Of a stretch of 64,000 nucleotides of DNA, positions 3,080 through 63,953 are shown one piece after another. A model generated the notes under the pieces. That model saw only the letters and a list, made by a program, of their open reading frames with translations. It had not been told where the DNA came from and searched no databases. The stretch covers positions 7,833 to 71,832 of the forward strand of contig CAZWBG010000003.1 in the NCBI GenBank assembly GCA_964632215.1, in the 5' to 3' direction. A program made the translations under genes and the position numbers. The stretch is from an uncultured Candidatus Saccharibacteria bacterium (GTDB lineage: Bacteria; Patescibacteriota; Saccharimonadia; Saccharimonadales; UBA7683). Within the stretch, counting starts at the first letter, position 1. The number at the start of each line of letters is the position of its first letter.

Positions 3080-3904
3080 CTACCACTCAGGATTATCTTT
3101 GGTACTAATGTCTTCACTTCTTTTGGCGAGTAGGGGCATCTGCTCGTAGTCTGGCGTTGCCCTAAGGCCCTGCTGCATTAAGCAAAAAAGCTGGCGAAGT
3201 GACTCGGCGATTTGTGGGCTATCAATAACTAAGCCCATAGCTTCTTCGCCAAAAGATATCACGGAGACTTTACTACCGAATATATTCCATTCTACTGGGG
3301 CGGTGTAGTCTTCTTGCTTCATCCAGGTACGATCAAAGAGGTACTTCTTATCTATATCAGGATCATTGTTTGCGTCGGGCACGTCAGGGGATAGGATTGT
3401 GGTAGGTATTCCGTAAGTAGAGGGTCGCTTGCGCCATACATTGTAAACACCTTTACCGAAAAATTCTCTATCTTTCCAGGAACGAATGATGTACAGATCT
3501 TGTTTGTCCCGTAACTGCTCCTTGTAGATAGTCTCAATACCTTCTTTTCCCTGAAAGTAACGTACGCCCGGTTGTTCGGAGAAAGTAAAAAAGTAGTTCA
3601 GCAGCGAGGGTATCGCAGCTTTCACCTGTTTTTCGTGCTCAGCTGCAGCTTTGCGTTTAGTTTCAGCAAGATGTTCTAGTGCAGTGGGGTGGCTAGCGGT
3701 ATAGGTGAGTTTTTTATCTTGCTCTAACTTTTTTGCCAGACCAAATTCTTCCAATTGGTCAAAGACTTTATAGGCATTAGTTCGGGTAACACCAAGTTTT
3801 TGGGCGATAACTGGCGGCTTCAAACTGCCGTGTTTTACAAGTAGTAAGTAGGCCTTTGCTTGAGGTTCGGTGAGGCCGATATCTTGTAATATCTTTATAT
3901 CCAT
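3080..3904 (-). CDS. TrmB-family transcriptional regulator
   Basis: N-terminal wHTH 'LQDIGLTEPQAKAYLLLVKHGSLKPPVIAQKLGVTRTNAYKVFDQLEEFGL' is typical of TrmB-like regulators. A ~170-aa C-terminal effector domain follows. Confidence 0.7.
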   Translation of the reverse strand: MDIKILQDIGLTEPQAKAYLLLVKHGSLKPPVIAQKLGVTRTNAYKVFDQLEEFGLAKKLEQDKKLTYTASHPTALEHLAETKRKAAAEHEKQVKAAIPSLLNYFFTFSEQPGVRYFQGKEGIETIYKEQLRDKQDLYIIRSWKDREFFGKGVYNVWRKRPSTYGIPTTILSPDVPDANNDPDIDKKYLFDRTWMKQEDYTAPVEWNIFGSKVSVISFGEEAMGLVIDSPQIAESLRQLFCLMQQGLRATPDYEQMPLLAKRSEDISTKDNPEW

Positions 3905-3910
3905 AGGTGT

Positions 3911-3919
3911 ATATTAGCA
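3911..3919 (-). promoter_or_regulatory. Extended -10 box (TGcTAATAT) 6 nt upstream of the TrmB-like start codon; leaderless candidate
   Basis: The minus strand reads TGC-TAATAT-acacct-ATG, and no SD lies between box and start. Confidence 0.5.
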
Positions 3920-3928
3920 CATATTATC

Positions 3929-3957
3929 TACTTTGTGAATAGTATTTTCACAAAGTA
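3929..3957. promoter_or_regulatory. Perfect palindrome, candidate operator in the divergent promoter region
   Basis: tactttgtgaa-N7-ttcacaaagta has 11-bp perfect arms. It lies between the TrmB-like gene and the 4037 operon. Confidence 0.5.
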
Positions 3958-4021
3958 CTGCCTATATTTTATCTGTAAGGTAAATATATGACCGCATAAT
4001 ATTGACATAATTAAATAAGAA

Positions 4022-4030
4022 TGATACTAT
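4022..4030 (+). promoter_or_regulatory. Extended -10 box (TGaTACTAT) 6 nt upstream of ATG 4037; leaderless candidate
   Basis: Sequence reads TGA-TACTAT-atgtac-ATG(4037). No SD is present. Confidence 0.4.
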
Positions 4031-4036
4031 ATGTAC

Positions 4037-4774
4037 ATGAAAAATATTGAGCAGATCCCGCAAGTACGACCAGTTATTCTTTATGACGACACACCCTACT
4101 ATCATTGGGGCTCAGAATCACCTATAGAGGAGCAGGCAACTATTCTAGCTGGCTTCCGTGGTTATACAGAGGGTGGTTTTACACTCATTAAGTTCAGTGG
4201 TCTTGTAGGTGATGAAGTTAAGAGAGCTCCTGATTACGGCTACAGTACGTCAAATTCCGAAGTGTATAAGCAATTTGTTAGTGATACAATCGCAAACTAC
4301 CTGGAAGAGGGTGGCGCTCCTATCACAGACATCGTAGCTCAAACTTATCTGAGAGAGTCACCAATATTAGACGAAGATCCCCGACTTGAGCATGTAGTAT
4401 GGTGGAAACTTAAAGTTGCATCGTATCCGTTTTACCACGGATCCACAGATAGTTTAACCTATGCAGGAGGTGGGCCAGCCCACAAGGCTAAGCCTATTAT
4501 TGTGGACTCCCAAGGAAGCGACATCCAGGGTGGTTTTAACGGTCCGATAGAAATATATCTCTTCGATAGCGATCCTATGGTTAGTGTGCGTGAAGAGTAT
4601 GACTATAAAGCAGGAAGATCTCTTGGTGGTGAAAAAAGGCAGATGGATCTTAGCGAACTACCTACATTCACAGAAGCCTTGCCACAGTTTAGTTTTATTC
4701 GTGCGGTCAGGGAGAGCAACCAGAGAATCGAAGACCAGGCATACAAGGAGTTTGTGGAGTCCATGGCTTGGTGA
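4037..4774 (+). CDS. Hypothetical protein (no recognisable domain)
   Basis: The ORF is 245-247 aa with balanced composition. The start may be 4031 or 4037. It is the first gene of a two-gene unit divergent from the TrmB-like regulator. Confidence 0.6.
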   Translation: MKNIEQIPQVRPVILYDDTPYYHWGSESPIEEQATILAGFRGYTEGGFTLIKFSGLVGDEVKRAPDYGYSTSNSEVYKQFVSDTIANYLEEGGAPITDIVAQTYLRESPILDEDPRLEHVVWWKLKVASYPFYHGSTDSLTYAGGGPAHKAKPIIVDSQGSDIQGGFNGPIEIYLFDSDPMVSVREEYDYKAGRSLGGEKRQMDLSELPTFTEALPQFSFIRAVRESNQRIEDQAYKEFVESMAW

Positions 4775-6550: not shown

Positions 6551-7143
6551 CCAATCACTACTACCATGGTGATGACGCTTAAGATATCAAAAATGGAAGA
6601 TTCAATAGGTCCCACGACATCGTCGGGATTTATTTTAAATGAACGGAAGACGACACTCAGTAAGCCAATAATTGGGAAGCCAATGAGTGCGCTAAGGCCA
6701 ATGGCGCCTAGAGCAAGCCAGAAGACTTGCCAAAATATAGCATCAAAAAACCAAACTGAAAGCCCTGCGCCGACAACTCCAACTAAGATACCTGAGAGCA
6801 GAGAAATAAGTAGAGCAAAACTGACATTACGCAGGAGTACAGGCCACCATTTTGCTTCTAGTTCTTCGAGCTGGTGATTAATCTTGGCGCTTAGCGTTGC
6901 ACCTAGAGAGCCGTCTAAATCAAAAATGCCGGGTAGTACCACAAAGGCTCCGGCCACGAGAGCCAGGGTGCCCTTATTGGTTTCAAGTAGTACTCCTGCT
7001 ATGACTGAACCAACAAGTGAGATAACTTGTGTCCAGGCCATCTGCTTTCCGTTGATACCAAGTGCTCGACGCCGACGCTTTTGGTAAAGATGGTGCCAGT
7101 GACGACCGTTATGGGCTGGCAAGTTCTTGGTTTTTGTGGGCAT
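6538..7143 (-). CDS. MgtE/SLC41-type divalent cation transporter membrane domain protein (half-size), paralog of downstream gene
   Basis: 'FKINPDDVVGPIESSIFDILSVITMVV' matches the same signature. It overlaps the downstream gene by 13 nt. The ORF-track start at 7224 lies inside a terminator hairpin. ATG 7143 (MPTKTK...) is preceded by CATAAT plus 6 nt. Confidence 0.5.
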   Translation of the reverse strand: MPTKTKNLPAHNGRHWHHLYQKRRRRALGINGKQMAWTQVISLVGSVIAGVLLETNKGTLALVAGAFVVLPGIFDLDGSLGATLSAKINHQLEELEAKWWPVLLRNVSFALLISLLSGILVGVVGAGLSVWFFDAIFWQVFWLALGAIGLSALIGFPIIGLLSVVFRSFKINPDDVVGPIESSIFDILSVITMVVVIGWLT

Positions 7144-7149
7144 GCGCTC

Positions 7150-7155
7150 ATTATG
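7150..7155 (-). promoter_or_regulatory. -10 box (CATAAT) 6 nt upstream of ATG 7143; leaderless candidate
   Basis: The minus strand reads CATAAT-gagcgc-ATG. Confidence 0.35.
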
Positions 7156-7203
7156 CGTGAATGGACTGATCATGTAAATAAGATGTCGGTGTTTGAAATA
7201 ATT

Positions 7204-11300: not shown

Positions 11301-11309
11301 TGATATAAT
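11301..11309 (+). promoter_or_regulatory. Extended -10 box (TGaTATAAT) 9 nt upstream of GTG 11319
   Basis: Sequence reads TGA-TATAAT-ttaccagac-GTG. No SD is present. Confidence 0.45.
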
Positions 11310-11318
11310 TTACCAGAC

Positions 11319-12254
11319 GTGAAAAAAATAAAACTTTCATACAATAAATGGCTACTAATTGGTTTACTGAGCATGTTGTTGGCCGCGCCCAATGCAACGG
11401 TGATTCGTCATACTGTGGGGTCAATAGATCCGACATTCTTTAACGTTATTAAATACGGACTATTGGCTGCTGGGTTGTTGCCATACGTGCTGATCAGGCG
11501 AAAAACATTCACAAAGCTATCACTGAAGTACGCGGTGATAGCCGGTGCTTCGATGGCTGCCGCTATCACTTCTTTTGTATGGGCGGTTTATCATAGCCAG
11601 GCAAGTCACGTGGTGATTATAACTTTACTAACGCCGATCATCTTGATTCTGTATTCGATCCGTCTGAACAAAGAACGAGTTACTAAGAGATCAATCGCTG
11701 GCATTAGCTTAGCTGCTGCAGGCGCTTTTATGATTGTAGCTCTTCCAATAGCCCTGCAGAATCGGGCGGACTTTCAATTTTATGGTCTTGCGACTGCGTT
11801 GGCATTGGTAAATTGTTTGACGTTTCCATTGGCAACTATCTATGCCAAGAAGGCTAATGACGCAGGCATTTCTTTACTTTCTGTTTCTGGTATCACAACC
11901 TTCATTGCCTTTGCGGTGTCGCTTGTAGTCCTCTTGGTGCGCGGAGGTACCGTGGAGGTGCCAACAACACTTTCTCTTGAAGTGATTGCTGGGATAGCTT
12001 ACAGTGCTCTTGGCGTAGCTCTGAGCGCACGCATATTGGGAGTTGCCAGCTATGAACACATTGGTGCCACGGCGATAGGTGCTCTGTTCTATCTTGAGAT
12101 GCTCATAGCTATTATCATCCCAGTACTATTTTTACATGAGAAGATATCGGTTGAGTTGATCGTGGGCGGTGTTTTGATTCTACTGGGTATCTATGTAGTG
12201 GAACATCGATCTGCGCTGCATCATCGACATTTTAATTTCTCGCGACACCACTAG
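11319..12254 (+). CDS. EamA/DMT-family transporter
   Basis: About 10 predicted TM helices in two similar halves. Size is 311 aa. Confidence 0.65.
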   Translation: MKKIKLSYNKWLLIGLLSMLLAAPNATVIRHTVGSIDPTFFNVIKYGLLAAGLLPYVLIRRKTFTKLSLKYAVIAGASMAAAITSFVWAVYHSQASHVVIITLLTPIILILYSIRLNKERVTKRSIAGISLAAAGAFMIVALPIALQNRADFQFYGLATALALVNCLTFPLATIYAKKANDAGISLLSVSGITTFIAFAVSLVVLLVRGGTVEVPTTLSLEVIAGIAYSALGVALSARILGVASYEHIGATAIGALFYLEMLIAIIIPVLFLHEKISVELIVGGVLILLGIYVVEHRSALHHRHFNFSRHH

Positions 12255-12262
12255 GCAATCTT

Positions 12263-12271
12263 TGCTATCAT
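12263..12271 (+). promoter_or_regulatory. Extended -10 box (TGcTATCAT) 6 nt upstream of ATG 12278; leaderless candidate
   Basis: Sequence reads TGC-TATCAT-gagcat-ATG. Confidence 0.45.
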
Positions 12272-12277
12272 GAGCAT

Positions 12278-12844
12278 ATGGTAAAAGCGATAGTTTTTGA
12301 TTGTTTCGGAGTGCTCACTGAAGACGGCTGGCTGGCCTTTGTGCACCAGTGGGTTACGCCAGACACGCTAGACGCAGCTAATTATCTCAACCATCAGCTA
12401 GATGTTGCAATGATTGCCTACCCTGACTTTTTAGACCAGATAGCTGTTTTGACGGGCGCTTCTAAAGACGAAGTAAATAAAATGATTCGCAGGTATCATC
12501 ACAGAAATGCAGCGCTTCTTACGTATATCACTCAGCTGAAAAAACACTATAAAATTGGCCTACTTTCTAACATAGGCGGTAACTATTTAGCCGAATTCTT
12601 AACTAAGGAAGATCTGACACTTTTTGATGCCATGTCACTTTCGTGTGAGACTGGCTTTTTAAAACCAAACTCCGAGGCGTATCAAGATATCTGCACAAAA
12701 CTAGATACGTTACCCGAAGAAGCGATTTTTATAGATGACAGAGAGGGTTACTGCGAGGGCGCGCGGACGGTTGGTTTGCAGGCGGTTCACTATACCGGGG
12801 TGTCAGCATTAAGACGTGAACTTGCCAAGCTTCATATAGGCTAG
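12278..12844 (+). CDS. HAD-superfamily hydrolase
   Basis: N-terminal 'AIVFDCFGVLT' is a motif-I-like sequence in which the second Asp is replaced. 'IGLLSN' is motif II. 'IFIDDREGYCEGA' is motif IV. Confidence 0.65.
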   Translation: MVKAIVFDCFGVLTEDGWLAFVHQWVTPDTLDAANYLNHQLDVAMIAYPDFLDQIAVLTGASKDEVNKMIRRYHHRNAALLTYITQLKKHYKIGLLSNIGGNYLAEFLTKEDLTLFDAMSLSCETGFLKPNSEAYQDICTKLDTLPEEAIFIDDREGYCEGARTVGLQAVHYTGVSALRRELAKLHIG

Positions 12845-17965: not shown

Positions 17966-17974
17966 TGCTATACT
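17966..17974 (+). promoter_or_regulatory. Extended -10 box (TGcTATACT) 6 nt upstream of mutM ATG; leaderless candidate
   Basis: Sequence reads TGC-TATACT-aagccc-ATG(17981). Confidence 0.5.
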
Positions 17975-17980
17975 AAGCCC

Positions 17981-18850
17981 ATGCCAGAATTACCCGAGGT
18001 AGAGACAGTCCGTCGTGGGCTACAAGATTTGCTCGTGGGACATGTAGTCACCGCAGTAGCCTTTGATACACCAAAGGGTTTTCCTAACGCTTCGGCTGAT
18101 GTCAAAGCTTTTTTGGTAGGTGCCAAGATATTATCGGTTCGTCGTAGAGCAAAAGTACTCATGATTGATCTTTCAACCGAGTATAGTTTAGTAATTCATC
18201 TTAAAATGACAGGCCAACTTGTGTATCGAGGAGAGTTAGCATTTGGAGCTGGGCACCCAACTGCCTCGTTGGTCGGTAAGTTACCCGATAAGTCTACCCG
18301 AGTCACGCTAGATTTAGATAAAGGTGCACACTTCTTTTTTAATGACCAACGTAAGTTTGGCTGGATGCGTCTGATGCCAACTGTAGAAATACCGAATATT
18401 GATTTTATGAAGAAGGTTGGTCCTGAGCCACTAGAAAAAAGCTTTACGAGCACCATATTTATTCAGCGGTTACAGCGCCGCAAAAAGAGTACCATTAAAG
18501 CCGCACTGCTTGATCAAACGGTTCTGGCGGGTGTCGGTAATATTTATGCAGATGAATCGCTGTGGGGTGCTAAAATTCACCCCGCTACTCGAGTGGAGCT
18601 GGTGCCACAAAATAAATTAAAAAAGTTATTCAGTGAGCTACAAGAAATTTTACTGCTAGCAATTGAAAAAGGTGGCTCGACCGATAAAAACTATGTAAAC
18701 GCTGAGGGTAAAAGTGGTAGTTATCTTACTTTTGCCCGAGTGTTTCGTAAAGAGGGCACGCCTTGCCCGCGACATCCGGATACATTAATAGAAAAAATTC
18801 GGGTGGCTGGCCGCGGAACGCACATCTGCCCCAAATGCCAGAAGCTATAG
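17981..18850 (+). CDS. mutM: Formamidopyrimidine-DNA glycosylase
   Basis: N-terminal catalytic 'MPELPEVETVRRGL', H2TH region, and C-terminal zinc finger 'CPRHPDTLIEKIRVAGRGTHICPKCQ'. Confidence 0.92.
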   Translation: MPELPEVETVRRGLQDLLVGHVVTAVAFDTPKGFPNASADVKAFLVGAKILSVRRRAKVLMIDLSTEYSLVIHLKMTGQLVYRGELAFGAGHPTASLVGKLPDKSTRVTLDLDKGAHFFFNDQRKFGWMRLMPTVEIPNIDFMKKVGPEPLEKSFTSTIFIQRLQRRKKSTIKAALLDQTVLAGVGNIYADESLWGAKIHPATRVELVPQNKLKKLFSELQEILLLAIEKGGSTDKNYVNAEGKSGSYLTFARVFRKEGTPCPRHPDTLIEKIRVAGRGTHICPKCQKL

Positions 18851-23455: not shown

Positions 23456-24162
23456 TCTTTAAAGTAGTGGAAATGGTCTTGCATGTGCTCAGTTGTCCCG
23501 ATGCTCTCTTGCAAGGCAAGAACTTGCTTCATATCTTCTCGTTGAGAGTGGTGGGCACGCATAATTTCGAGTTTATGACTAATAACGTCACGATTGTCGA
23601 CAATCTCATCTATTTCTGCAGCTACTTTACCTGCAGGCATGTAGAGCCAGTTGATATTGGCTTGGGGTACCGAGACCTTCGGCAGGCAGAAATACTTTAG
23701 TACTCCCAGCGTAATATTGGGCTTGGCTTGTTCGCGCAGTGTCAAATAGACGAAGGTGGTGATACAGCTGACTGCAATATGGTCAAGGTGACCCGATATG
23801 CCTCCGCTGTCGAACGTCATAAAATCAACCGTAATAGGCTCGTGGTAGTGTCCGAGCGTTATTTCAATATATGTGAGTATTTTCTGGGCAATTTCAAGGT
23901 ATAGGTCATTATCAAGTCCACCGTCGGGGTAGTGCAGGGCGTGGCCGGATTTCACACCGATGAGCTTACCGCTATTTGCCCATTCTTTGAGTCGCACCTC
24001 TCCGAGATTCGTCACATTGTCGGGGTTGCGACCTGCCTCGCCGTCGGTCACAAGTATTAAGTGCACATCTGCACCAGCCTGAGTGGCTTTATAAAGAGTA
24101 GCGGAGGGGCCAAAGCCTTCGTCATCTGGGTGAGCAAAAATACCAAACAATACTTTCTTCAT
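23452..24162 (-). CDS. PIG-L/LmbE-family N-acetylglucosaminyl deacetylase
   Basis: Signature 'FAHPDDEGFG', plus downstream 'HLDH' and 'AHHSQ' metal and substrate motifs. Confidence 0.8.
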   Translation of the reverse strand: MKKVLFGIFAHPDDEGFGPSATLYKATQAGADVHLILVTDGEAGRNPDNVTNLGEVRLKEWANSGKLIGVKSGHALHYPDGGLDNDLYLEIAQKILTYIEITLGHYHEPITVDFMTFDSGGISGHLDHIAVSCITTFVYLTLREQAKPNITLGVLKYFCLPKVSVPQANINWLYMPAGKVAAEIDEIVDNRDVISHKLEIMRAHHSQREDMKQVLALQESIGTTEHMQDHFHYFKD

Positions 24163-43293: not shown

Positions 43294-43923
43294 CTTCTCA
43301 GGTTCACATACAACAATTTGTGGGCCACTGAGTATGATGTATCCATGTCTGGCGAGCGAGGTAAGTTCACGGCTGGTTGTCTCGCGACTCGCATTGATTG
43401 AGCTTGCAATATCATGACGGCGAATTGGTGCACTAATAGCAATGCCATCTTTTGTTTTAGTTCCAAAACGATCAGCGTGTGTCAGCAAGAATGAAGCTAC
43501 CCGTTCCCGAACGGTGCGATACTCGAGGTTGTTCACTCGTTCAGAGTGTAGTCGATAGGCCTCGATAGCCATATCTAGCAGCACGGGTACCACATGCTCA
43601 TTCTCTTGTAGGAACTTGAGGAAGTCACTCCGGGCAACTCGCCATAGAGTGGTGTCACTCATAGTCTCATAGGTAATATCACGATGTAGTCCCGTAAAGG
43701 CCCAGATGAGTGGGAATAGATCATCTTTCTGACGAATAATTAGAAGATTCTCCTCACCGTACTTAGTAATGGCATAGGCTTTTACAAACCCTGAGGTAAC
43801 GTAATAGATTCCACGCGGGTCATCACCAGCGTGGACGATCGATTCACCCTTTTTGTATGAAAGCTGTGTTCCAGTGTGAAAAAAGGCTATAAGTTTTTCG
43901 TGCGCTGCTTTATCCGCCAACAT
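43276..43923 (-). CDS. Crp/Fnr-family transcriptional regulator
   Basis: cNMP-binding beta-barrel ('GESIVHAGDDPRGIYYVTSGFVKAY') and C-terminal HTH ('RHDIASSINASRETTSRELTSLARHGYI'). I prefer ATG 43923 (MLADK), which is preceded by TGtCATACT plus 6 nt, over ORF-track GTG 43974. Confidence 0.75.
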   Translation of the reverse strand: MLADKAAHEKLIAFFHTGTQLSYKKGESIVHAGDDPRGIYYVTSGFVKAYAITKYGEENLLIIRQKDDLFPLIWAFTGLHRDITYETMSDTTLWRVARSDFLKFLQENEHVVPVLLDMAIEAYRLHSERVNNLEYRTVRERVASFLLTHADRFGTKTKDGIAISAPIRRHDIASSINASRETTSRELTSLARHGYIILSGPQIVVCEPEKLRALL

Positions 43924-43929
43924 GCCACC

Positions 43930-43938
43930 AGTATGACA
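43930..43938 (-). promoter_or_regulatory. Extended -10-like box (TGtCATACT) 6 nt upstream of ATG 43923
   Basis: The minus strand reads TGT-CATACT-ggtggc-ATG. Confidence 0.35.
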
Positions 43939-44056
43939 GGTCAGGATATTTTTATAAAGCGTGATAAAGATCACTACTCATATGTGAGATTGCGTACAGC
44001 ATGCTACTCCCGTTAGCCTATACTAAGAGTACAAGGTAAGGCAAAGGAGGCGAACA

Positions 44057-44668
44057 ATGGCATACGTGGCTGGTAAACCGATCCTAAGAACTAACCCACT
44101 CGATCTTTTCACCCGCATGGAGTTGGCTGAATTACCTCATTTACTCACACCTGGCGAAACAGTTCTCGGTATAGTGGGAGGATTCTACAGTGCCGGTACT
44201 GCAATTTTATGCGTTACAACTCAGCGACTGCTATTACTTGATAAAAAGCTTTTTCGACTCTCTTTTGAAGATGTAAGATTCGATGTTATTAATGAAGTAA
44301 TTTACAGCCATCAAATGTTCCTTGCATCAGCTACTTTCTATGTTGCAGGTAGGAATTTAAATTTCCGTACATGGTATAAAAAGGAACTTCAGCTACTAGT
44401 GCGCTATGTGCAGAATAAGATGTTTGAATCTAGGGGTGAGGCTACGGTCGAAGATAGCGGTGTACAGGAGTTGTTGGGCGAGCAGGCTAAGCATGAAATT
44501 TCTGGTAATGAAGTAGCAAAGCCACTTTCTCAGACTCAGTACCATTATACCTCACGATTAACTCCCGCCAGGCGGCCGTATATGGGGCAGGGAACAGCTA
44601 GGTGGCGTCGAGCTGGCCGATTTATGAATACACTTCCGAGTCACCCCGGCTCACGGAATAGTTCGTAG
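44057..44668 (+). CDS. Bacterial PH-domain (YokE/bPH-like) protein with basic C-terminal tail
   Basis: 'LLTPGETVLGIVGG...AILCVTTQRLLLLDKKLFRLSFEDVRFDVINEV' is typical of bacterial PH domains. SD AAGGAGG is present. Confidence 0.45.
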   Translation: MAYVAGKPILRTNPLDLFTRMELAELPHLLTPGETVLGIVGGFYSAGTAILCVTTQRLLLLDKKLFRLSFEDVRFDVINEVIYSHQMFLASATFYVAGRNLNFRTWYKKELQLLVRYVQNKMFESRGEATVEDSGVQELLGEQAKHEISGNEVAKPLSQTQYHYTSRLTPARRPYMGQGTARWRRAGRFMNTLPSHPGSRNSS

Positions 44669-44682: not shown

Positions 44683-45819
44683 TTACTTACTGACGTTGAA
44701 TCTAAACTCAACCACATCATCTGGTTGCATACTGTAGGTCTTTCCTTCGGTACGCACCTTACCAGCAGTTTTCGCGGCTTGTAGTGACCCGACACTAAGC
44801 AGATCGGAACAGGTGACTATTTCTGCTGCAATAAATCCGCGTTCAAAATCGCCGTGAATCACACCTGCAGCTTGCGGAGCAGTCGCTCCAATTTTGATAG
44901 TCCAAGCTCGCACTTCTTTATCCCCCGCAGTCAGGTAGCTTTGTAAACCCAGGGTTGTGTAGGCGGCATGAATAACCTGTGTGAGGCCAGATTCGTTCTG
45001 ACCGTAACTTTCTAGAAGTTCACTGGCTTCAGTTTCGGACATGTCTTTGAGCTCGGCCTCAAGTTGAGCATTCACAAATAAACTTTGAGCGGGCTCGCCT
45101 GACTGGCTTTCTGATCGGGCAGGTGAGACAAGCTCACTGAGCTCTTTTTGCTCTGCTGTATTACCAAGGTTTTCCTCATCAATATTAAAAACATAAATAA
45201 CTGGCTTAGTGGTGAGTAGTTGCATGTTACGAAGTGCTAATACTGGCTCTGAATTGGCGTCGAGATTACCGAGTGTTTGCGTGAGTGAGCCTATATCTCC
45301 AGCTTCTAAAAATGACAGCACAGTTTTTAGAAGGTCTACATTACCCTTGAGCTTAGGATTGGCTCGGGCTTCTTTTTCAAGTTTGGGTAAGCTTTTTTCA
45401 ATAGTCTGTAGATCGGCCAGAATAAGCTCGGTATTGATAATCTCGATATCATCCTTAGGGTGAACTCGCTCGTGTACGTGTACAATATCGTTATTCTCAA
45501 ATGCCCGAACCACGTGCACAATAGCGTCACACTCGCGAATATTGGCTAAGAATTGATTGCCCAGGCCCTCGCCTTTACTGGCCCCTGCAACCAAGCCCGC
45601 GATATCTACAAAGGTAACCGTAGCCGGGACGATCGGTGCGTTGTTGTAGAGTTGGCTTAGCTGTGTGAGTCTTTCATCTGGTACGGGTACAATACCAGTA
45701 TTTGGTTCAATAGTTGCAAATGGATAATTAGCCGCTAAAATATCATTTTTAGTCAGTGCATTAAAAAGTGTAGATTTGCCTACATTTGGTAAGCCAATAA
45801 TGCCAATGGATAAACTCAT
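44683..45819 (-). CDS. ychF: Redox-regulated ATPase YchF
   Basis: G1 motif 'GIIGLPNVGKSTLFNALT', 'DIAGLV', and a TGS-like C-terminus 'DFERGFIAAEIV'. Confidence 0.92.
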   Translation of the reverse strand: MSLSIGIIGLPNVGKSTLFNALTKNDILAANYPFATIEPNTGIVPVPDERLTQLSQLYNNAPIVPATVTFVDIAGLVAGASKGEGLGNQFLANIRECDAIVHVVRAFENNDIVHVHERVHPKDDIEIINTELILADLQTIEKSLPKLEKEARANPKLKGNVDLLKTVLSFLEAGDIGSLTQTLGNLDANSEPVLALRNMQLLTTKPVIYVFNIDEENLGNTAEQKELSELVSPARSESQSGEPAQSLFVNAQLEAELKDMSETEASELLESYGQNESGLTQVIHAAYTTLGLQSYLTAGDKEVRAWTIKIGATAPQAAGVIHGDFERGFIAAEIVTCSDLLSVGSLQAAKTAGKVRTEGKTYSMQPDDVVEFRFNVSK

Positions 45820-45826
45820 TAATCTT

Positions 45827-45835
45827 ATTATAACA
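45827..45835 (-). promoter_or_regulatory. Extended -10 box (TGtTATAAT) 7 nt upstream of ychF ATG; leaderless candidate
   Basis: The minus strand reads TGT-TATAAT-aagatta-ATG. Confidence 0.5.
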
Positions 45836-46014
45836 GAGGTATAATATAAGTACTAGGTAAAGCCTTCTTGAGTATGCCCGCAGTATAAATTCTGAGGAAC
45901 TTCTCCAAGCTTGATGTGTGCTGTGGCTAGAATATGTGGGGGTTGAATAGATTCTAACGTTACTAAATGCTGGCCAGACACACTTGCTTAATTGAAAAAG
46001 GGGTAAGCATAAGC

Positions 46015-46020
46015 TATAAT
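46015..46020 (+). promoter_or_regulatory. -10 box (TATAAT) 9 nt upstream of ATG 46030
   Basis: Sequence reads TATAAT-tctctcaag-ATG. No SD is present. Confidence 0.4.
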
Positions 46021-46029
46021 TCTCTCAAG

Positions 46030-46554
46030 ATGTCTCAAGAAGATTTTAAAGATACTCAGAAGAATAAAAAAAGATCACTCATCGGCAAGAGAAAGTGGGT
46101 TGTGCCAGTGGCCCTACTGGTAGTTATTTTACTTGTGGCAGGCGTAGCTGGCGGATATTTTGTGCAAAAAAAGCGGGCGCAGAATATTTGTAGCGGTAGT
46201 GCTGCGGGAACTGCTTTCTTTGAAGAAGCTGCCGGGTTTCTTGCAATTGGTAGCTCTGTATCAGAACTAAGGCCATATGCCGAAAAGGTGTTTGCCACAA
46301 AAGGGTATGAAAAGTCTGCAAGTTGTCTCTATGTAGTGCTTGTGTACAGTATTGACCTCAGTGACCCGGGTGAGTCACGCCTATACTTGGATAAATTGAC
46401 AGCAATTTATAATCCCGAGCAAGGGTACGACAAGGGGATCGAAGGGGTTGCGCTCACACTCGATGAACTAAAGCCCATTGTTGAATTCTTGGAACAACAA
46501 GCGAAGCCAACTAATCCTGGATTGCGTTACGCACCACAGGTGTCAGAACAATGA
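46030..46554 (+). CDS. Hypothetical single-pass membrane protein
   Basis: I prefer 'MSQEDFKDTQKNKKRS...' plus the TM helix 'VVPVALLVVILLVAGVAGGYFV' over ORF-track 45967. The stop overlaps the next gene's start (ATGA). Confidence 0.55.
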   Translation: MSQEDFKDTQKNKKRSLIGKRKWVVPVALLVVILLVAGVAGGYFVQKKRAQNICSGSAAGTAFFEEAAGFLAIGSSVSELRPYAEKVFATKGYEKSASCLYVVLVYSIDLSDPGESRLYLDKLTAIYNPEQGYDKGIEGVALTLDELKPIVEFLEQQAKPTNPGLRYAPQVSEQ

Positions 46555-49382: not shown

Positions 49383-49430
49383 TCAGCGTGATTATTTCTT
49401 ACCTACCCCTTGGCAAGTATAAAACGCTTA

Positions 49431-49439
49431 TGGTAAACT
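49431..49439 (+). promoter_or_regulatory. Extended -10 box (TGgTAAACT) 10 nt upstream of pilM ATG
   Basis: Sequence reads TGG-TAAACT-aagcacaagt-ATG(49450). No SD is present. Confidence 0.4.
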
Positions 49440-49449
49440 AAGCACAAGT

Positions 49450-50502
49450 ATGAAGCAATCAATATTCAATGCGGTGGGAGAGTTCTTTGCCTTGGACATC
49501 GGGTCAACGGCAGTAAGAATTGTACAGCTACGTCCAAGCGGGCATGGTTTTAACCTAGTAAAGTATGGTGCTACCCCTGTTGATGTCAAAACTGCACTCT
49601 CAGATGCTCCAGCTGACCAACTTAAGATTGGCGAGATTATCTCTAGTCTTATCACTGAGATAGGTCTTTCTACTCGTAACGTGGCAGTAGGCTTACCGTC
49701 TAATAAAACTTTCGTGACCATTGTTGATGTTCCTAAGATGTCACCACAAGAACTGGCGAGCACAATTAAGTACCAAGCTGACCAATTTATCCCTATGGCT
49801 GCGAATGAGGCAAAAATCGATCATGCGGTCTTGGGTGATTCACCTACGGAACAGGGAAAGTCAGAGGTATTACTTGCTAGTGTTACTAATAAATTTAGTG
49901 AACAAAGACTAGAGATGCTTGAGGCGATTGGACTTAATGTTGTAGCCTTGGAGCCAGAATCACTGGCCTTGGCTCGTGCGCTTACGCCCCTAAATGGATC
50001 AGCAGGCGGACAGATGATTGTCGATATTGGTGAGTACGCCACAGATATTGTGATTACACTGGGCGGAGCTCCGCGGCTCGTGCGTACTATACCTACGGGT
50101 GGTCAGACCCTGATTCGTTCAGCGGTACAAAACCTTAACATAGATGAAAATCAAGCTCGCCAGTTTGTTTACAAGTTTGGTCTTGATAAAACTAAGCTTG
50201 AAGGTCAAATATACCGAGCCCTAGATGCATCAGTAGAAGTGATTGCTACCGAAGTACAAAAATCGATCAAATTCTTTTCAGCACGCTATCAGAATGCACC
50301 TATTAATGCTATTACTACTTCAGGTGCAGCAGCAGTTTTACCTGGTTTTCACCAATATCTTTCAGCCTCTGCAGGCAATATACCAGTTCAGGCGGGCAAT
50401 AGTTGGCAAAATGTCTCGTACCCTAATAACATTCACGAACAGCTGATGGCTGTAAATCATCAGTTTGCGGTGGCCGTAGGCTTGGCAGAGAGGAGTGCTT
50501 AA
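49450..50502 (+). CDS. pilM: Type IV pilus assembly protein PilM (actin-like ATPase fold)
   Basis: 'FALDIGSTAVRIVQL' phosphate-1 motif. Size is 350 aa. It is the first gene of the pil operon. Confidence 0.8.
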   Translation: MKQSIFNAVGEFFALDIGSTAVRIVQLRPSGHGFNLVKYGATPVDVKTALSDAPADQLKIGEIISSLITEIGLSTRNVAVGLPSNKTFVTIVDVPKMSPQELASTIKYQADQFIPMAANEAKIDHAVLGDSPTEQGKSEVLLASVTNKFSEQRLEMLEAIGLNVVALEPESLALARALTPLNGSAGGQMIVDIGEYATDIVITLGGAPRLVRTIPTGGQTLIRSAVQNLNIDENQARQFVYKFGLDKTKLEGQIYRALDASVEVIATEVQKSIKFFSARYQNAPINAITTSGAAAVLPGFHQYLSASAGNIPVQAGNSWQNVSYPNNIHEQLMAVNHQFAVAVGLAERSA

Positions 50503-61981: not shown

Positions 61982-61987
61982 CCGTTA

Positions 61988-62914
61988 CTAACTAGGTTTA
62001 ATGTCTTTATGGAACTTCCGGTGAACTTCTTTTAGGTGTGGATCTGTAACGTGTGTATAGATCTGTGTTGTTGATATATCGCTGTGTCCAAGCATTGTCT
62101 GTACGCTGCGTATATCAGCGCCGTTCATGAGTAGGTCGGTTGCAAAACTATGTCGCATAGTGTGAGGTGTTACTTTTTTAATAATGCCAGCTAATTTTGC
62201 GTACCGTTGAACAATACGCTGGATACTACGGGGTGTTAATCGCAAGAAATCGCCACTCGTATCTTGCTCTTTTGTACCGCCGTAGCGAATAAATAGGGCG
62301 GGCGAGTTGTCTTGACGCTTGGTAATGTAAGCGTCTATCCAGTAGGCTGAAACCTCACTCATAAATATCGGCCGATCTTTCTGCCCTTTACCTCTAACCA
62401 CAAATTCTCGGCGTTTCGTACTAACGTGTGTACGATCTAAGCCGACAAGTTCTGAGACTCGCAGTCCGCCGCTAAAAAGAAGTTCAAGTAGGGTCCGATC
62501 ACGTAGTCCAATACTAGTAGAGGTATCTGGTTGAGCAAACAGTGCCTCTAGTTCGTCACGGTTTAAAAATGTCACTTGCTTACGTTTCGTACGCGCCAAT
62601 TCAACCTTGCTTGGCGAAAGGGAGTCAATTTCTCGTTTGGAACAAAACTTTAGAAAACTTCTTAGTGCAATAAGATGATAATTTTGTGTTGTAGTTGATA
62701 TGTCTTGGTCCGTATCTCGGTTTAATCTGTTAAGCCAGAGTCGCCATTTACGAACTGTCTCAGTAGTCATTTTTTCTACTTCAATATCTCCTGAAAACTC
62801 TACCAAACGCATAAGGTAGTGGTGATAATTTTCAATAGTCTTCTGTGAACGGTTTTGTTCAATCTCAAGGTATTCGAGAAACTCAATAATTGTGTCAGAA
62901 AGGTAGTGAGTCAT
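61988..62914 (-). CDS. Tyrosine recombinase XerC/XerD family
   Basis: N-terminal SAM-like core-binding domain. Catalytic 'GLRVSELVGL', 'TPHTMRHSFATDLLMNGADIRSVQTMLGHSDISTTQIYTHV' (R..H-R-Y set). Confidence 0.85.
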   Translation of the reverse strand: MTHYLSDTIIEFLEYLEIEQNRSQKTIENYHHYLMRLVEFSGDIEVEKMTTETVRKWRLWLNRLNRDTDQDISTTTQNYHLIALRSFLKFCSKREIDSLSPSKVELARTKRKQVTFLNRDELEALFAQPDTSTSIGLRDRTLLELLFSGGLRVSELVGLDRTHVSTKRREFVVRGKGQKDRPIFMSEVSAYWIDAYITKRQDNSPALFIRYGGTKEQDTSGDFLRLTPRSIQRIVQRYAKLAGIIKKVTPHTMRHSFATDLLMNGADIRSVQTMLGHSDISTTQIYTHVTDPHLKEVHRKFHKDIKPS

Positions 62915-62920
62915 ATTTGT

Positions 62921-62926
62921 ATTCTA
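62921..62926 (-). promoter_or_regulatory. -10 box (TAGAAT) 6 nt upstream of xer ATG; leaderless candidate
   Basis: The minus strand reads TAGAAT-acaaat-ATG. Confidence 0.4.
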
Positions 62927-63132
62927 GTGAAAATAGACACAAAATACCAGGTTGAAATCATTTATGCTTAAAATTGATACCAGGTTTTGCTAGCGTGGTT
63001 TTTTTGCAACTGAACACAAAAAATAGTGTTCAGTTATCTTGACGGACACCCTGAAATACTGGGCAGATATTGTTCAATAGCAACATGTAGTCTTGAAATT
63101 CTTGGATACTCGCGTCAGTATCCAAAAACCGC

Positions 63133-63138
63133 TATAAT
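63133..63138 (+). promoter_or_regulatory. -10 box (TATAAT) 8 nt upstream of uppP ATG; leaderless candidate
   Basis: Sequence reads TATAAT-agaaagca-ATG(63147). Confidence 0.45.
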
Positions 63139-63146
63139 AGAAAGCA

Positions 63147-63953
63147 ATGAGTATTATTACGAGTATTATTCTGGGTATTGTCCAGGGTGCAACTGAATTT
63201 TTGCCTGTCTCGAGCTCGGGGCATCTTATTATTATGAGCCACCTTTTAGGGAGTAAGAGCTCTTTTGAATTTGATGTGTTGGTCAATTTTGGTACTCTCG
63301 CCACCATTATTATCTATTACCGCAAGCGCTTGTTAAGTATTGCTCAAGACGTCTTTGTGAGACGCGATTTACGCCTCATATTAAAGCTTATTCTTGCTAC
63401 AATTCCTGCCGCTTGCATCGGCTTTTTTGGGCAAAGTATTATTGAAACATATTTACATACGACATGGGTAGTTGTGTTTATGCTCCTGGCCGTGGGTGTT
63501 CTAATGGTTGCTTCCCGTTGGTGGAAGCCGAGTGAATCGCTCGCTATTAATAAAGATTTACACGGCGTAACATTCCGACAGTCACTTCTGATAGGTTTCG
63601 CTCAGTGTTTTTCACTCATTTCTGGTGGTTCACGTTCTGGTATCACAATTTTAACGGGTTTAAAGCTAGGGTTTACTACTCAAAAGGCAGCCGAATGGAG
63701 CTTCTTAATGGGTATCCCGATTATCTTTGGAGCTAGTATGAAGGTGTTATTCAGTGAAAAAGGTATGGCATTTGTGACTGAACAAACAGGAGCGTTCATT
63801 ATAGCCAACATCGTCTCATTTATAACTGGCATGCTAGCCATTCATCTTTTGATGAGATTATTACAACAAAAAGGCCTCTATTGGTTCGGTTGGTACCGCA
63901 TCGCCTTGGCATTTGTACTAGTAATACTGTTATCTGCTAAAATACTTTCATAG
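63147..63953 (+). CDS. uppP: Undecaprenyl-diphosphate phosphatase
   Basis: 'GIVQGATEFLPVSSSGHL' signature and 'SRSGITI' motif. Eight TM helices. Confidence 0.92.
   Translation: MSIITSIILGIVQGATEFLPVSSSGHLIIMSHLLGSKSSFEFDVLVNFGTLATIIIYYRKRLLSIAQDVFVRRDLRLILKLILATIPAACIGFFGQSIIETYLHTTWVVVFMLLAVGVLMVASRWWKPSESLAINKDLHGVTFRQSLLIGFAQCFSLISGGSRSGITILTGLKLGFTTQKAAEWSFLMGIPIIFGASMKVLFSEKGMAFVTEQTGAFIIANIVSFITGMLAIHLLMRLLQQKGLYWFGWYRIALAFVLVILLSAKILS

What the first reader, a model, noticed from the sequence alone, without database searches (positions are those of the whole stretch)
3902..63149. Window-wide pattern: (TGn)TAnnnT -10 box 6-10 nt upstream of start codons lacking a Shine-Dalgarno, implying many leaderless mRNAs
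Read directly from the sequence (box, gap, start):
- TGcTAATAT, 6 nt, ATG 3904 (minus strand)
- TGaTACTAT, 6 nt, ATG 4037
- CATAAT, 6 nt, ATG 7143 (minus strand)
- TGaTATAAT, 9 nt, GTG 11319
- TGcTATCAT, 6 nt, ATG 12278
- TGcTATACT, 6 nt, ATG 17981 (mutM)
- TATACT, 6 nt, ATG 24162 (minus strand)
- TATACT, 8 nt, ATG 24185 (truB)
- TGaTATACT, 6 nt, GTG 26515
- TGgTATACT, 7 nt, ATG 37964 (ftsK)
- TGtCATACT, 6 nt, ATG 43923 (minus strand)
- TGtTATAAT, 7 nt, ATG 45819 (ychF, minus strand)
- TATAAT, 9 nt, ATG 46030
- TGgTAAACT, 10 nt, ATG 49450 (pilM)
- TAGAAT, 6 nt, ATG 62914 (minus strand)
- TATAAT, 8 nt, ATG 63147 (uppP)
Transcription normally starts ~7 nt after the -10 box, so these transcripts would begin at or within a few nt of the start codon. 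Other genes clearly use leaders with strong SDs: rpsT, rpsF, pilin 1, and the genes starting at 16945, 27627 and 44057. The genome therefore appears to mix two initiation modes. The pattern also helps choose true starts where the ORF track over-extends (4037, 7143, 43923, 46030).
Basis: seen in the sequence. Interest (0 to 1): 0.6.

Follow-up and report, generated by a model that had tools for sequence, protein, structure and literature searches.

The report
Leaderless-gene promoters in a Saccharibacteria genome
About a quarter of the genes in this stretch of an uncultured Saccharibacteria (TM7) genome have a promoter -10 box 6-10 bases before the start codon and no ribosome-binding site, so their mRNAs most likely start at the start codon; this is well known in Actinobacteria and Deinococcus, but I found no report of it for this phylum.

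Summary
All 16 boxes, gaps and start codons are in the sequence as written, and the pattern is not chance. With uncorrected longest-ORF starts, TANNNT sits exactly 6 nt upstream of 9 of 64 genes, against 2.0±1.4 in dinucleotide shuffles. TGnTANNNT at 6-10 nt precedes 8 genes, against 0.5 expected.

The window comes from a Candidatus Saccharibacteria (Saccharimonadales) MAG. The same gap-6 peak appears in 33 related Saccharibacteria loci and in Actinomycetota loci (positive control). It is absent from 200 kb of E. coli.

The boxes behave as sigma-70 promoters. They carry TGn/TRTG extensions, and a TTG -35 signal that I did not select for appears at a 17-nt spacer. The genes behind them lack a Shine-Dalgarno (SD) site. 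Profiles and homologues support the starts, for example MutM with its catalytic Pro2.

Orthologues keep the box at an invariant distance while the spacer sequence drifts. In one clade ychF has moved the box upstream and gained a GAGAGGAGG SD.

The leaderless interpretation is supported, but no TSS data exist. This is the known "TA-led" or GeneMarkS-2 group C organisation in a new phylum, so interest is modest.

The parts
3902..3939 (-). Promoter and leaderless start of a TrmB-type HTH regulator: -35 TTCACA (3939-3934), TGcTAATAT (3919-3911), 6 nt, ATG 3904
   Evidence: Pfam TrmB HTH covers residues 6-73 against profile 1-67. The public call uses the same start.
4002..4039 (+). TTGACA-17-TACTAT promoter with TG (4002-4030), 6 nt, ATG 4037. 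An alternative ATG at 4031 abuts the box.
   Evidence: 10/12 match. The public call uses 4031, so the start is unresolved.
7141..7178 (-). TTTACA-17-CATAAT promoter (7178-7150), 6 nt, ATG 7143 of an MgtE-domain transporter
   Evidence: Homologues are 197-205 aa, matching the 201-aa product from 7143.
11301..11321 (+). TGaTATAAT (11301-11309), 9 nt, GTG 11319 of an EamA transporter
   Evidence: Pfam EamA covers 10-140 against profile 2-134, favouring 11319. The public call uses ATG 11373.
12242..12280 (+). GCGACA-18-TATCAT with TG (12242-12271), 6 nt, ATG 12278 of a HAD hydrolase
   Evidence: Pfam Hydrolase covers 2-163 against profile 1-188. The L096 orthologue has TACAAT+6.
17966..17983 (+). 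TGcTATACT (17966-17974), 6 nt, ATG 17981 of mutM/fpg (MPEL..., N-terminal catalytic proline)
   Evidence: protein 1-288 against profile 1-274. Orthologues: L096 TGgTACAAT+6 and L097 TATACT+7.
24160..24187 (.). Bidirectional core AGTATACT in a 22-bp gap between divergent genes. The minus-strand TATACT (24174-24169) lies 6 nt before ATG 24162 (PIG-L/LmbE-type deacetylase). The plus-strand TATACT (24171-24176) lies 8 nt before ATG 24185 (truB).
   Evidence: The same architecture occurs in metagenome loci L087, L088 and L092.
26500..26517 (+). TGaTATACT (26500-26508), 6 nt, GTG 26515 (HTH plus phosphoribosyltransferase/ComF-like protein)
   Evidence: HTH_11 at residues 5-46. The public call uses the same start.
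37928..37966 (+). TTGTAA-17-TATACT with TATGg extension (37928-37956), 7 nt, ATG 37964 of ftsK
   Evidence: ftsK orthologues carry a -10 box 6-13 nt upstream.
43921..43974 (-). TGtCATACT (43938-43930), 6 nt, ATG 43923 of a CRP/FNR-family regulator. The palindrome GTGATCTTTATCAC (43974-43961) lies upstream.
   Evidence: 7 orthologues all have (C/G/A)A(T/A)(A/G)(A/C)T exactly 6 nt before ATG-MLA, with an unconserved spacer and in-frame stops upstream in 5. The NCBI call uses the same start.
45817..45835 (-). TGtTATAAT (45835-45827), 7 nt, ATG 45819 of ychF
   Evidence: protein 1-376 against profile 1-368; about 22 orthologues have a box 6-8 nt upstream, and clade L025-L031 is SD-led instead.
45992..46032 (+). 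TTGAAA-17-TATAAT (45992-46020), 9 nt, ATG 46030 (orphan membrane protein)
   Evidence: 11/12 match. The public 174-aa call uses this start.
49410..49452 (+). TTGGCA-18-TAAACT with TATGg extension (49410-49439), 10 nt, ATG 49450 of pilM
   Evidence: 19 orthologues have a conserved GCTTATG(n)TATAAT, mostly 9-11 nt before the ATG; L032 has about 19 nt.
62912..62926 (-). TAGAAT (62926-62921), 6 nt, ATG 62914 of a XerC/D-type recombinase
   Evidence: residues 5-302 against profile 5-296. The public call uses the same start.
63133..63149 (+). TATAAT (63133-63138), 8 nt, ATG 63147 of uppP
   Evidence: residues 1-262 against profile 1-264. The public call uses the same start.
41521..41535 (+). There is no SD here, although most orthologues have AAGGAG.
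44017..44059 (+). Comparator for the leadered mode: TATACT about 34 nt upstream, then AAAGGAGG 5 nt before ATG 44057. It is SD-led in all 7 orthologues.

Best explanation
These are housekeeping sigma-70/sigma-A-type promoters placed so that transcription starts on, or 1-4 nt before, the start codon. They have a -10 hexamer TAnnnT, usually TATAMT. Most carry a TGn/TRTG extension, and about half have a recognisable -35 at a 17±1 nt spacer.

With the modal 6-nt gap, the A or G of the start codon lies 7 nt after the last T of the hexamer. That is the canonical +1 position, so the mRNA begins 5'-pppAUG.

Such leaderless mRNAs have no room for a Shine-Dalgarno site. The ribosome would bind the 5'-terminal start codon directly (70S or IF2/fMet-tRNA-dependent pathway, as established in other bacteria). 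Genes inside operons, and a second class of first genes (rpsF, 16945, 27627, 44057, pilins), use leaders with GGAGG-type SDs.

Roughly 14-16 of 64 genes, or about 40% of transcription units, fall in the leaderless class.

Shown here:
- motif, geometry and enrichment
- absence of SD in the box genes
- validity of the start codons
- conservation of box position across Saccharibacteria
- switching between the two modes among orthologues

Inferred: the actual TSS positions and the translation pathway.
For: 1. Positional peak at gap 6.
- Window: 9 observed against 2.0 in shuffles, p=5e-4. TGn-extended: 8 against 0.5.
- First genes of 33 Saccharibacteria loci: TANNNT 40 against a background of 10.5. 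TGnTANNNT 20 against 1.3, Poisson p about 1e-17, with the caveat that orthologues are not independent.
- Actinomycetota loci (positive control) show the same peak at gaps 6-8. E. coli (200 kb) shows 0 of 135.

2. Promoter identity.
- In 87 aligned box genes, an unselected TTG signal appears at -23 to -21 (T 59%, T 40%, G 34%), which is a 17-nt spacer. A TATG-like signal appears at -5 to -2.
- The independent scan finds full -35/-10 promoters at 7 of the 16 sites.
- The same TGnTATAMT boxes occur 20-100 nt upstream of SD-led genes.

3. No SD. All box genes have anti-SD duplex ΔG above -3 kcal/mol, while 27 of the 50 other genes are at or below -5.

4. Starts are real.
- NCBIfam/Pfam profile coordinates begin at residues 1-8 for mutM (catalytic Pro2), ychF, truB, uppP, xerC/D, the PIG-L deacetylase, the HAD hydrolase, TrmB and HTH_11.
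- 14 of 16 starts equal the public gene calls.

5. Comparative evidence.
- The CRP-family gene keeps the box exactly 6 nt upstream in 7 orthologues while the spacer varies.
- ychF has a box at 6-8 nt in about 22 loci. Clade L025-L031 has TGCTAAAAT plus a leader of about 29 nt with GAGAGGAGG.
- pilM, ftsK, truB and mutM orthologues also keep proximal boxes.
- rpsF and the 44057 gene are SD-led everywhere.

6. The 22-bp divergent pair 24162/24185 leaves no room for leaders.
Against: - There is no transcript 5'-end data for this organism. The only TSS set I found for the phylum (TM7x) was inferred from RNA-seq coverage and is imprecise (PMC12641261).
- The count of generic promoter-like sites is not above shuffles.
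- The mutual exclusion of box and SD is partly trivial, because both would occupy the same 15 nt.
- Gaps of 9-11 nt (pilM, 46030, 11319) suggest short leaders rather than none.
- Two starts (4037, 11319) disagree with the public calls.
- The locus statistics count orthologous genes repeatedly.
- The 16S anti-SD could not be examined, because there is no rRNA in the window or the loci.
Confidence: 0.85

Rival explanations
1. The boxes are real promoters, but the true start codons lie further downstream. The mRNAs would then have ordinary leaders, and the annotated N-termini would be over-extended.
For: Longest-ORF starts are over-extended at several genes in this window, such as 7224, 43974, 45967 and 7774. 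For 11319 the public call uses a downstream ATG at 11373.
Against: Profile alignments begin at residues 1-8 for at least 11 of the 16 genes. MutM needs Pro2 as its N-terminal nucleophile (established enzymology of Fpg). Orthologue N-termini are conserved right up to the ATG next to the box. The gene most affected by this rival is 11319; a downstream start is not excluded for the poorly conserved N-termini either.
Confidence: 0.05
2. The TA-rich motif is a translation signal inside a longer leader transcribed from an upstream promoter. It would be a non-SD ribosome-binding or S1-binding element, as in GeneMarkS-2 group B genomes such as Bacteroidetes.
For: The motif is A/T-rich and lies where an RBS would be. 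A few SD-less leadered genes exist in the window (21302, 28706).
Against: - The motif has the sigma-70 signature: invariant A2/T6, a TG at -15/-14, and a -35 TTG at a 17-nt spacer.
- The gap peaks sharply at 6, as in Actinomycetota.
- Genes internal to operons use SD rather than this motif.
- The same motif lies far upstream of SD-led genes.
- When the ychF box moves upstream, an SD appears.
Confidence: 0.05
3. The pattern is chance. AT-rich intergenic DNA produces TANNNT matches, and the reader selected starts to fit them.
For: TANNNT is loose, at about 2% per position. Four starts were chosen with the box in mind. The count at any gap from 6 to 10 in the window is only moderately significant (p=0.017).
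Against: With uncorrected starts the gap-6 and TGn-extended counts exceed the dinucleotide shuffles (p at or below 5e-4). The peak recurs in independent loci and is absent from E. coli. Box position is conserved in orthologues while flanking bases vary.
Confidence: 0.02

Closest known systems
"TA-led" leaderless genes (Zheng et al. 2011, PMC3160421) and GeneMarkS-2 group C genomes (Lomsadze et al. 2018, PMC6028130)
   Same: A TANNNT Pribnow box lies about 6-8 nt before the start codon of first genes in operons. The remaining genes use SD. About 20-25% of genes, or 25-50% of operons, are affected. In medium-GC genomes the motif reads TAtaaT.
   Different: Those surveys report Actinobacteria and Deinococcus-Thermus as the rich phyla (Zheng et al. 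also list Aquificae and others). TM7 is not mentioned in Zheng et al.. The GeneMarkS-2 supplement is not held, so an existing group-C assignment for TM7 genomes cannot be excluded. Here the boxes frequently carry a TGn/TRTG extension.
Mycobacterial, Streptomyces and Corynebacterium leaderless transcriptomes (Cortes et al. 2013, PMC3898074; Shell et al. 2015, PMC4633059)
   Same: The geometry matches: the -10 box ends 6-8 nt before an A/GTG that is both TSS and start codon. Housekeeping and regulatory genes are included. The Actinomycetota loci analysed here show the same gap 6-8 peak.
   Different: Those cases are backed by dRNA-seq and ribosome profiling, and this one is not. Actinobacterial -10 boxes are TAnnnT with uninformative middle positions, and -35 elements are weak. 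Here the hexamer is close to TATAAT/TATACT.
Deinococcus deserti leaderless mRNAs (de Groot et al. 2014, as cited in PMC6028130)
   Same: A large share of genes is transcribed without a leader from -10 boxes next to the start codon.
   Different: The fraction is higher there (167 of 262 mapped genes), and it is a different phylum.
Bidirectional promoters arising from -10 symmetry (Warman et al. 2021, as summarised in PMC10268837)
   Same: The 24162/24185 pair shares a palindromic AGTATACT. Its two -10 hexamers overlap on opposite strands. The predicted divergent TSSs are 21-23 bp apart, inside the 7-25 bp definition.
   Different: The commonest spacing in enterobacteria is 18 bp, with reciprocal -7T/-11A pairing. 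Here both arms would give leaderless mRNAs of protein-coding genes, and no TSS data exist.

Membership tests
Leaderless (TA-led) gene class / GeneMarkS-2 group C genome | A Pribnow-like TANNNT motif localised about 6-8 nt upstream of start codons of first genes in operons, above background | tested here: met
   Gap-6 peak in the window, in 33 Saccharibacteria loci and in metagenome loci. It is absent from E. coli.
Leaderless (TA-led) gene class / GeneMarkS-2 group C genome | These genes lack an SD, while other genes, especially those internal to operons, have one | tested here: met
   All box genes have ΔG above -3 kcal/mol. 27 of 50 other genes are at or below -5. Internal genes show an SD peak at gaps 5-10.
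Leaderless (TA-led) gene class / GeneMarkS-2 group C genome | A substantial fraction is affected (over about 20% of genes, or 25-50% of operons) | tested here: met
   14-16 of 64 genes, or about 40% of roughly 40 transcription units, in the window. With crude starts, 12% of genes in the related loci. The whole genome was not available.
Leaderless (TA-led) gene class / GeneMarkS-2 group C genome | The mapped TSS coincides with the start codon (5' UTR of 0-5 nt) | not testable with these tools
   No transcript 5'-end data are available. The TM7x TSSs in the literature are inferred from coverage only.
Leaderless (TA-led) gene class / GeneMarkS-2 group C genome | The 5'-terminal start codon is AUG or GUG | tested here: met
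   14 ATG and 2 GTG in the window. 78 ATG, 5 GTG and 4 TTG among the 87 box genes.
Sigma-70/sigma-A housekeeping promoter with extended -10 | A -10 hexamer with conserved A at position 2 and T at position 6 | tested here: met
   16 of 16 sites. 14 of 16 also have T at position 1.
Sigma-70/sigma-A housekeeping promoter with extended -10 | A TG dinucleotide one base upstream of the hexamer | tested here: met
   10 of 16 in the window. TGnTANNNT at gap 6 occurs 20 times against a background of 1.3 in the loci.
Sigma-70/sigma-A housekeeping promoter with extended -10 | A -35 element (TTGACA-like) at a 16-18 nt spacer | tested here: inconclusive
   Present at 7 of 16 sites by the scan's criteria. 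The aggregate TTG signal at a 17-nt spacer (T 59%, T 40%, G 34%) was not selected for. Several sites have no recognisable -35, which is usual for extended -10 promoters.
Non-SD RBS genomes (GeneMarkS-2 group B, Bacteroidetes-type) | The same non-SD motif precedes all genes, including those internal to operons | tested here: not met
   Internal genes carry GGAG-type SDs. The TA box is concentrated at first genes.
Bidirectional promoter (symmetry of the -10 element) | Divergent TSSs 7-25 bp apart with overlapping -10 elements | tested here: inconclusive
   The hexamers 24169-24174 (minus strand) and 24171-24176 (plus strand) overlap by 4 bp. The predicted TSSs are 21-23 bp apart. The arrangement is conserved in L087, L088 and L092. 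TSSs have not been measured.

The most novel reading that the evidence does not exclude
Leaderless initiation is a conserved feature across the phylum Saccharibacteria, an ultrasmall CPR/Patescibacteria lineage, at a frequency similar to Actinobacteria, and it has not been described for this phylum. Individual genes such as ychF flip between leaderless and SD-led modes between clades.

This could reflect shared Terrabacteria ancestry. It could also reflect compatibility of expression signals with the actinobacterial hosts, which would ease gene exchange. It would also matter for designing genetic tools and for gene-start calling in CPR genomes.
Probability: 0.5. Interest if true: 0.5.

Novelty: new member of a known kind. 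Interest (0 to 1): 0.38.

Why it matters
Saccharibacteria are now genetically tractable models for the Candidate Phyla Radiation. If about 40% of their transcription units are leaderless, several practical points follow:
- A -10 box placed 6 nt before the ATG is a sufficient expression signal for constructs.
- Gene-start annotation improves. The ORF track over-extended 3-4 of the 16 genes here.
- Interpretation of RNA-seq and ribosome profiling changes.

It also extends the phylogenetic range of leaderless-rich bacteria beyond Actinobacteria and Deinococcus-Thermus into the CPR. That bears on whether leaderless initiation is ancestral in Terrabacteria. The mechanism itself is well known.

Tried and rejected
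- Rfam and tRNA scans of the window found nothing. The canonical anti-SD is inferred only from the GGAGG motifs at the correct spacing.
- The total count of sites in the generic promoter scan is not above shuffles, so I used it only for the location of the best sites.
- Literature: the TM7x transcriptome paper (PMID 35975994) is not held. The GeneMarkS-2 supplementary tables are not held. The only co-occurrences of "leaderless" with Saccharibacteria/CPR terms were in reference lists or unrelated contexts.
- The look-up of encoding contigs had no record for P0001. For mutM it returned only Logan assemblies of SRR16797976/7.
- I first read the box/SD exclusion test as independent evidence. I downgraded it because the box and an SD would compete for the same positions.
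- I considered that 7774 (DNA polymerase I) was an SD-less GTG start and rejected it. ATG 7795 with GGCGGAGG is the likely start.

Full report
**What is in the sequence**

I extracted the 50 nt upstream of each of the 16 claimed starts. Ten boxes carry the TGn extension. Two (CATAAT at 7143, CATACT at 43923) have C instead of T at hexamer position 1, so they are -10-like rather than strict TAnnnT. The comparators 16945, 27627, 44057 and rpsF (40485) have GGAGG-type Shine-Dalgarno (SD) sequences 5-8 nt upstream.

**Is it more than chance?**

Each 40-nt upstream region was shuffled 2000 times, preserving dinucleotides.

| Motif and position | Observed genes | Shuffles (mean ± sd) | p |
|---|---|---|---|
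| TANNNT at gap 6 | 9 | 2.0 ± 1.4 | 5e-4 |
| TANNNT at any gap 6-10 | 16 | 9.5 ± 2.7 | 0.017 |
| TGnTANNNT at gaps 6-10 | 8 | 0.53 ± 0.69 | no shuffle reached 8 |

The histogram against gap shows a single peak at 6. The generic -35/-10 scan finds no more sites overall than shuffles (21 vs 31.7, 33 vs 28.5, 32 vs 35.0), so loose consensus matching alone is uninformative. Its best sites, however, sit directly in front of the claimed starts:
- TTGACA-17-TACTAT before 4037
- TTTACA-17-CATAAT before 7143
- TTGAAA-17-TATAAT before 46030
- TG-containing 9/12 sites before 3904, 12278, 37964 and 49450

Other top sites precede SD-led genes at leader distance (rpsF 40485, pilin 56304, 28706).

**Where the window comes from**

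The YchF protein (44683-45819, minus strand) has its closest relatives (61-73% identity) in Candidatus Saccharibacteria/Saccharimonadales MAGs. The next best are Actinomycetota at 56-60%. Exact-sequence look-ups place the window's proteins on a 72,572-bp NCBI contig and on Logan assemblies of SRR16797976/7. The organism is therefore an uncultured member of the TM7 phylum (CPR/Patescibacteria), at about 45% GC.

**Is it a property of the clade?**

I ran the same crude pipeline on four sets of sequence and counted motifs at gap 6 in front of first-in-operon genes.

| Sequence set | TANNNT at gap 6 | Background | TGnTANNNT at gap 6 | Background |
|---|---|---|---|---|
| 33 Saccharibacteria loci (~560 kb, 388 first genes) | 40 | 10.5 | 20 | 1.3 |
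| 46 Actinomycetota loci (positive control) | 15 (then 7 and 5 at gaps 7 and 8) | 0.8 | 0 | 0.05 |
| E. coli K-12, 200 kb (negative control, 135 first genes) | 0 | 2.4 | 0 | 0.2 |

The loci are syntenic around ychF, so many genes are orthologues. The nominal Poisson p-values (1e-12 to 1e-17) overstate independence. An SD-type motif peaks at gaps 5-10 in both first and internal genes.

**Are the boxes promoters?**

I aligned 87 box-bearing genes from the window and loci on the hexamer. Two signals appear that played no part in the selection:
- TTG at -23 to -21 (T 59%, T 40%, G 34%), which is a -35 element at a 17-nt spacer.
- T/A at -5/-4 (49% and 45%). Together with TG this reads TATGn, resembling the Gram-positive "-16 TRTG" extension. 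That resemblance is from my own knowledge and was not tested.

The gap distribution is 6: 42, 7: 13, 8: 14, 9: 12, 10: 4. 90% of the starts are ATG. A 6-nt gap puts the first base of the start codon 7 nt after the hexamer's last T, which is the canonical +1. The same TGnTATAMT boxes occur 20-100 nt upstream of the SD-led first genes (18895, 44057, 16945, 58937, 56884, 40485). So one promoter type serves both classes, and only its distance to the start codon differs.

**Do these genes lack an SD, and are the starts right?**

Every box gene has an anti-SD duplex energy between +1.7 and -2.8 kcal/mol, while 27 of the 50 other genes are at or below -5. This exclusion is partly trivial, because box and SD would occupy the same bases. 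It still shows that these genes cannot use an SD.

Start codons are supported by profile coordinates:

| Gene (start) | Protein residues | Profile positions |
|---|---|---|
| MutM (17981) | 1-288 | 1-274 |
| YchF (45819) | 1-376 | 1-368 |
| TruB (24185) | 2-220 | 2-208 |
| UppP (63147) | 1-262 | 1-264 |
| XerC/D (62914) | 5-302 | 5-296 |
| PIG-L deacetylase (24162) | 8-135 | 3-125 |
| HAD hydrolase (12278) | 2-163 | 1-188 |
| TrmB HTH (3904) | 6-73 | 1-67 |
| HTH_11 (26515) | 5-46 | 3-46 |
| EamA (11319) | 10-140 | 2-134 |

MutM begins MPEL, and Pro2 is the catalytic N-terminus of Fpg, which is established enzymology.

- 43923 is proven by orthologues. All 7 start at MLA, and 5 have in-frame stops just upstream.
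- 7143 is supported by homologues of 197-205 aa.
- 46030 equals the public 174-aa call.
- 4037 remains undecided, because the public call uses 4031.

Overall, 14 of 16 starts coincide with the public gene calls. 11319 is replaced there by ATG 11373, although that start would truncate the first EamA helix.

**Comparative evidence for function**

- CRP-family regulator: the 7 orthologues have TGtCATACT, TGaCATACT, TGaCAAGAT, CATAAT (two loci), GATAAT and GATACT. Each lies exactly 6 nt before the ATG. The six spacer bases are unrelated between orthologues. Conserved geometry without conserved sequence is what a promoter-to-TSS constraint predicts.
- ychF: about 22 loci carry TGnTAnnnT 6-8 nt before the ATG and have no SD. 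The L025-L031 clade has TGCTAAAAT followed by a leader of about 29 nt containing GAGAGGAGG. L003, L011 and L018 also have purine-rich SD-like leaders. When the box moves away, an SD appears.
- pilM: 19 orthologues share GCTTATG(n)TATAAT, with the box mostly 9-11 nt upstream and one at about 19 nt. ftsK orthologues have boxes 6-13 nt upstream.
- truB: an independent scan of JGI metagenomes returned 12 Saccharibacteria-like loci, and at least 10 have a -10 box 6-8 nt before the start. mutM, HAD and PIG-L orthologues there show the same.
- rpsF and the 44057 gene are SD-led in every orthologue.

**The divergent pair 24162/24185**

Only 22 bp separate the two ATGs. The palindrome AGTATACT supplies TATACT on both strands, at gaps of 6 and 8, with the hexamers overlapping by 4 bp. 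L087, L088 and L092 have the same arrangement. There is no room for leaders. The predicted divergent TSSs are 21-23 bp apart, within the 7-25 bp range used to define bacterial bidirectional promoters (PMC10268837).

**Mechanism**

The most likely mechanism, at about 0.85 confidence, is as follows. The housekeeping RNA polymerase holoenzyme recognises an extended -10 promoter, often with a -35. It opens the DNA and initiates at the A or G of the start codon, or 1-4 nt before it where the gap is 8-11 nt. The resulting leaderless mRNA is decoded by direct binding of the ribosome to the 5'-terminal start codon. Downstream cistrons and a second class of transcription units use SD pairing.

What is shown here:
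- the motif, its geometry and its enrichment
- the absence of SD in the box genes
- the validity of the starts
- conservation of box position
- switching between modes among orthologues

The TSS positions and the initiation pathway are inferred.

The rivals each get 0.05 or less, for the reasons in their entries: true starts downstream, a non-SD RBS inside long leaders, and chance.

**Comparison with what is known**

This is the "TA-led" gene class of Zheng et al. 2011 (TANNNT about 10 bp before the start; 19% of genes in Actinobacteria and 39% in Deinococcus-Thermus). It is also the "group C" of GeneMarkS-2 (Pribnow box 6-8 nt from the start, 25-50% of operons). Both have been validated by dRNA-seq in Mycobacterium, Streptomyces, Corynebacterium and Deinococcus. 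The window's 14-16 of 64 genes (about 40% of transcription units) fall in that range.

I found no paper in the searchable library that attributes leaderless transcription to Saccharibacteria or any CPR lineage. The only TSS data found for the phylum (TM7x, 188 sites) were inferred from RNA-seq coverage and described as imprecise (PMC12641261). The public calls already place most starts next to the boxes, so gene finders that model leaderless promoters may handle this implicitly. The GeneMarkS-2 supplementary tables are not held, so I cannot exclude that TM7 genomes were already listed in group C.

**Verdict**

It is a new member (phylum) of a known kind. Interest is modest at 0.38. It is useful for CPR genetics and annotation and for the evolutionary distribution of leaderless initiation, but it is not mechanistically new.

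Noticed in passing
window 43961-43974 (minus strand); L012, L013 orthologous positions: A perfect palindrome GTGATCTTTATCAC (CRP/FNR-type half-sites) is centred about 44 bp upstream of the leaderless ATG 43923 of the CRP/FNR-family regulator itself. Similar boxes occur in orthologues (GTGATATTTATCAAC, TTTGATCACAAATTGAC). This suggests autoregulation from a class-II-like position.
   Followed up: partly
window 24163-24184; L087, L088, L092: A 22-bp divergent intergenic region has its palindromic AGTATACT serving as the -10 box in both directions, for the PIG-L deacetylase and truB. The hexamers overlap, so the two promoters should compete for one RNA polymerase. The arrangement is conserved in three metagenome relatives.
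   Followed up: partly
L025-L031, 60 nt upstream of ychF (around locus position 10001): In one Saccharibacteria clade ychF has switched from leaderless to leadered. TGCTAAAAT is followed by a leader of about 29 nt with GAGAGGAGG, and the N-terminus is one residue shorter (ML.. instead of MSL..).
   Followed up: yes
window 7716-7805: TATACT (7716-7721) plus 6 nt precedes an ATG at 7728 that opens a 25-codon ORF (MSARKNHSIKAFCLIRGKPGGGYGV*). This ORF ends at 7805 and overlaps, out of frame, the probable DNA polymerase I start at ATG 7795 (SD GGCGGAGG). It may be a leaderless upstream ORF coupled to polA, or a chance AUG at the 5' end of the polA leader. The listed GTG 7774 start is probably over-extended.
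   Followed up: partly
window 28634-28706: A perfect consensus promoter TTGACA-18-TATAAT with TG (12/12) is followed by a 42-nt A/T-rich leader with no SD before ATG 28706 (a 459-aa protein with no Pfam hit). The leader contains a 5-codon mini-ORF at 28676. Orthologues in L092 and L098 have weak AAGG(A)-type SDs.
   Followed up: partly
window 41521-41535: efp (41533) has no SD here. It has TAAGAT 6 nt upstream and lies 9 nt after a 64-codon ORF. Most Saccharibacteria orthologues have AAGGAG. It may be an additional internal leaderless promoter or a coupled start.
   Followed up: partly
window 37940-37956 and 49423-49439; pilM orthologues in 19 loci: The ftsK and pilM promoters share the upstream motif CGCTTATGG immediately before the hexamer. 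GCTTATG is conserved before the pilM -10 box across Saccharibacteria. It is either a TRTG-type -16 element or a shared regulator site.
   Followed up: partly
one search hit list (L035-L080): After Saccharibacteria, the nearest relatives of this YchF are all Actinomycetota (56-60% identity), the host phylum of cultivated Saccharibacteria. L005 (labelled Verrucomicrobiia) carries a Saccharibacteria-type ychF and promoter, and L033 (labelled Actinomycetota MAG) groups with the Actinomycetota hits. L005 is probably a binning or label error.
   Followed up: no
window 56304-58017: Three tandem pilin-like paralogues (56304, 56884, 57499) have nearly identical SD leaders (..GGGTGTGGT/GGAGTGGT ATG) and repeated 5' coding sequence. 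56304 is preceded by a TTGACT-16-TATAAT promoter at 56234-56261.
   Followed up: no
window 4031/4037 and 11319/11373: Public gene calls differ from the box-guided starts at two genes. ATG 4031 abuts the -10 box and would lie upstream of the predicted TSS. ATG 11373 would truncate the first EamA transmembrane helix. Both may be annotation errors that the leaderless model would correct.
   Followed up: partly
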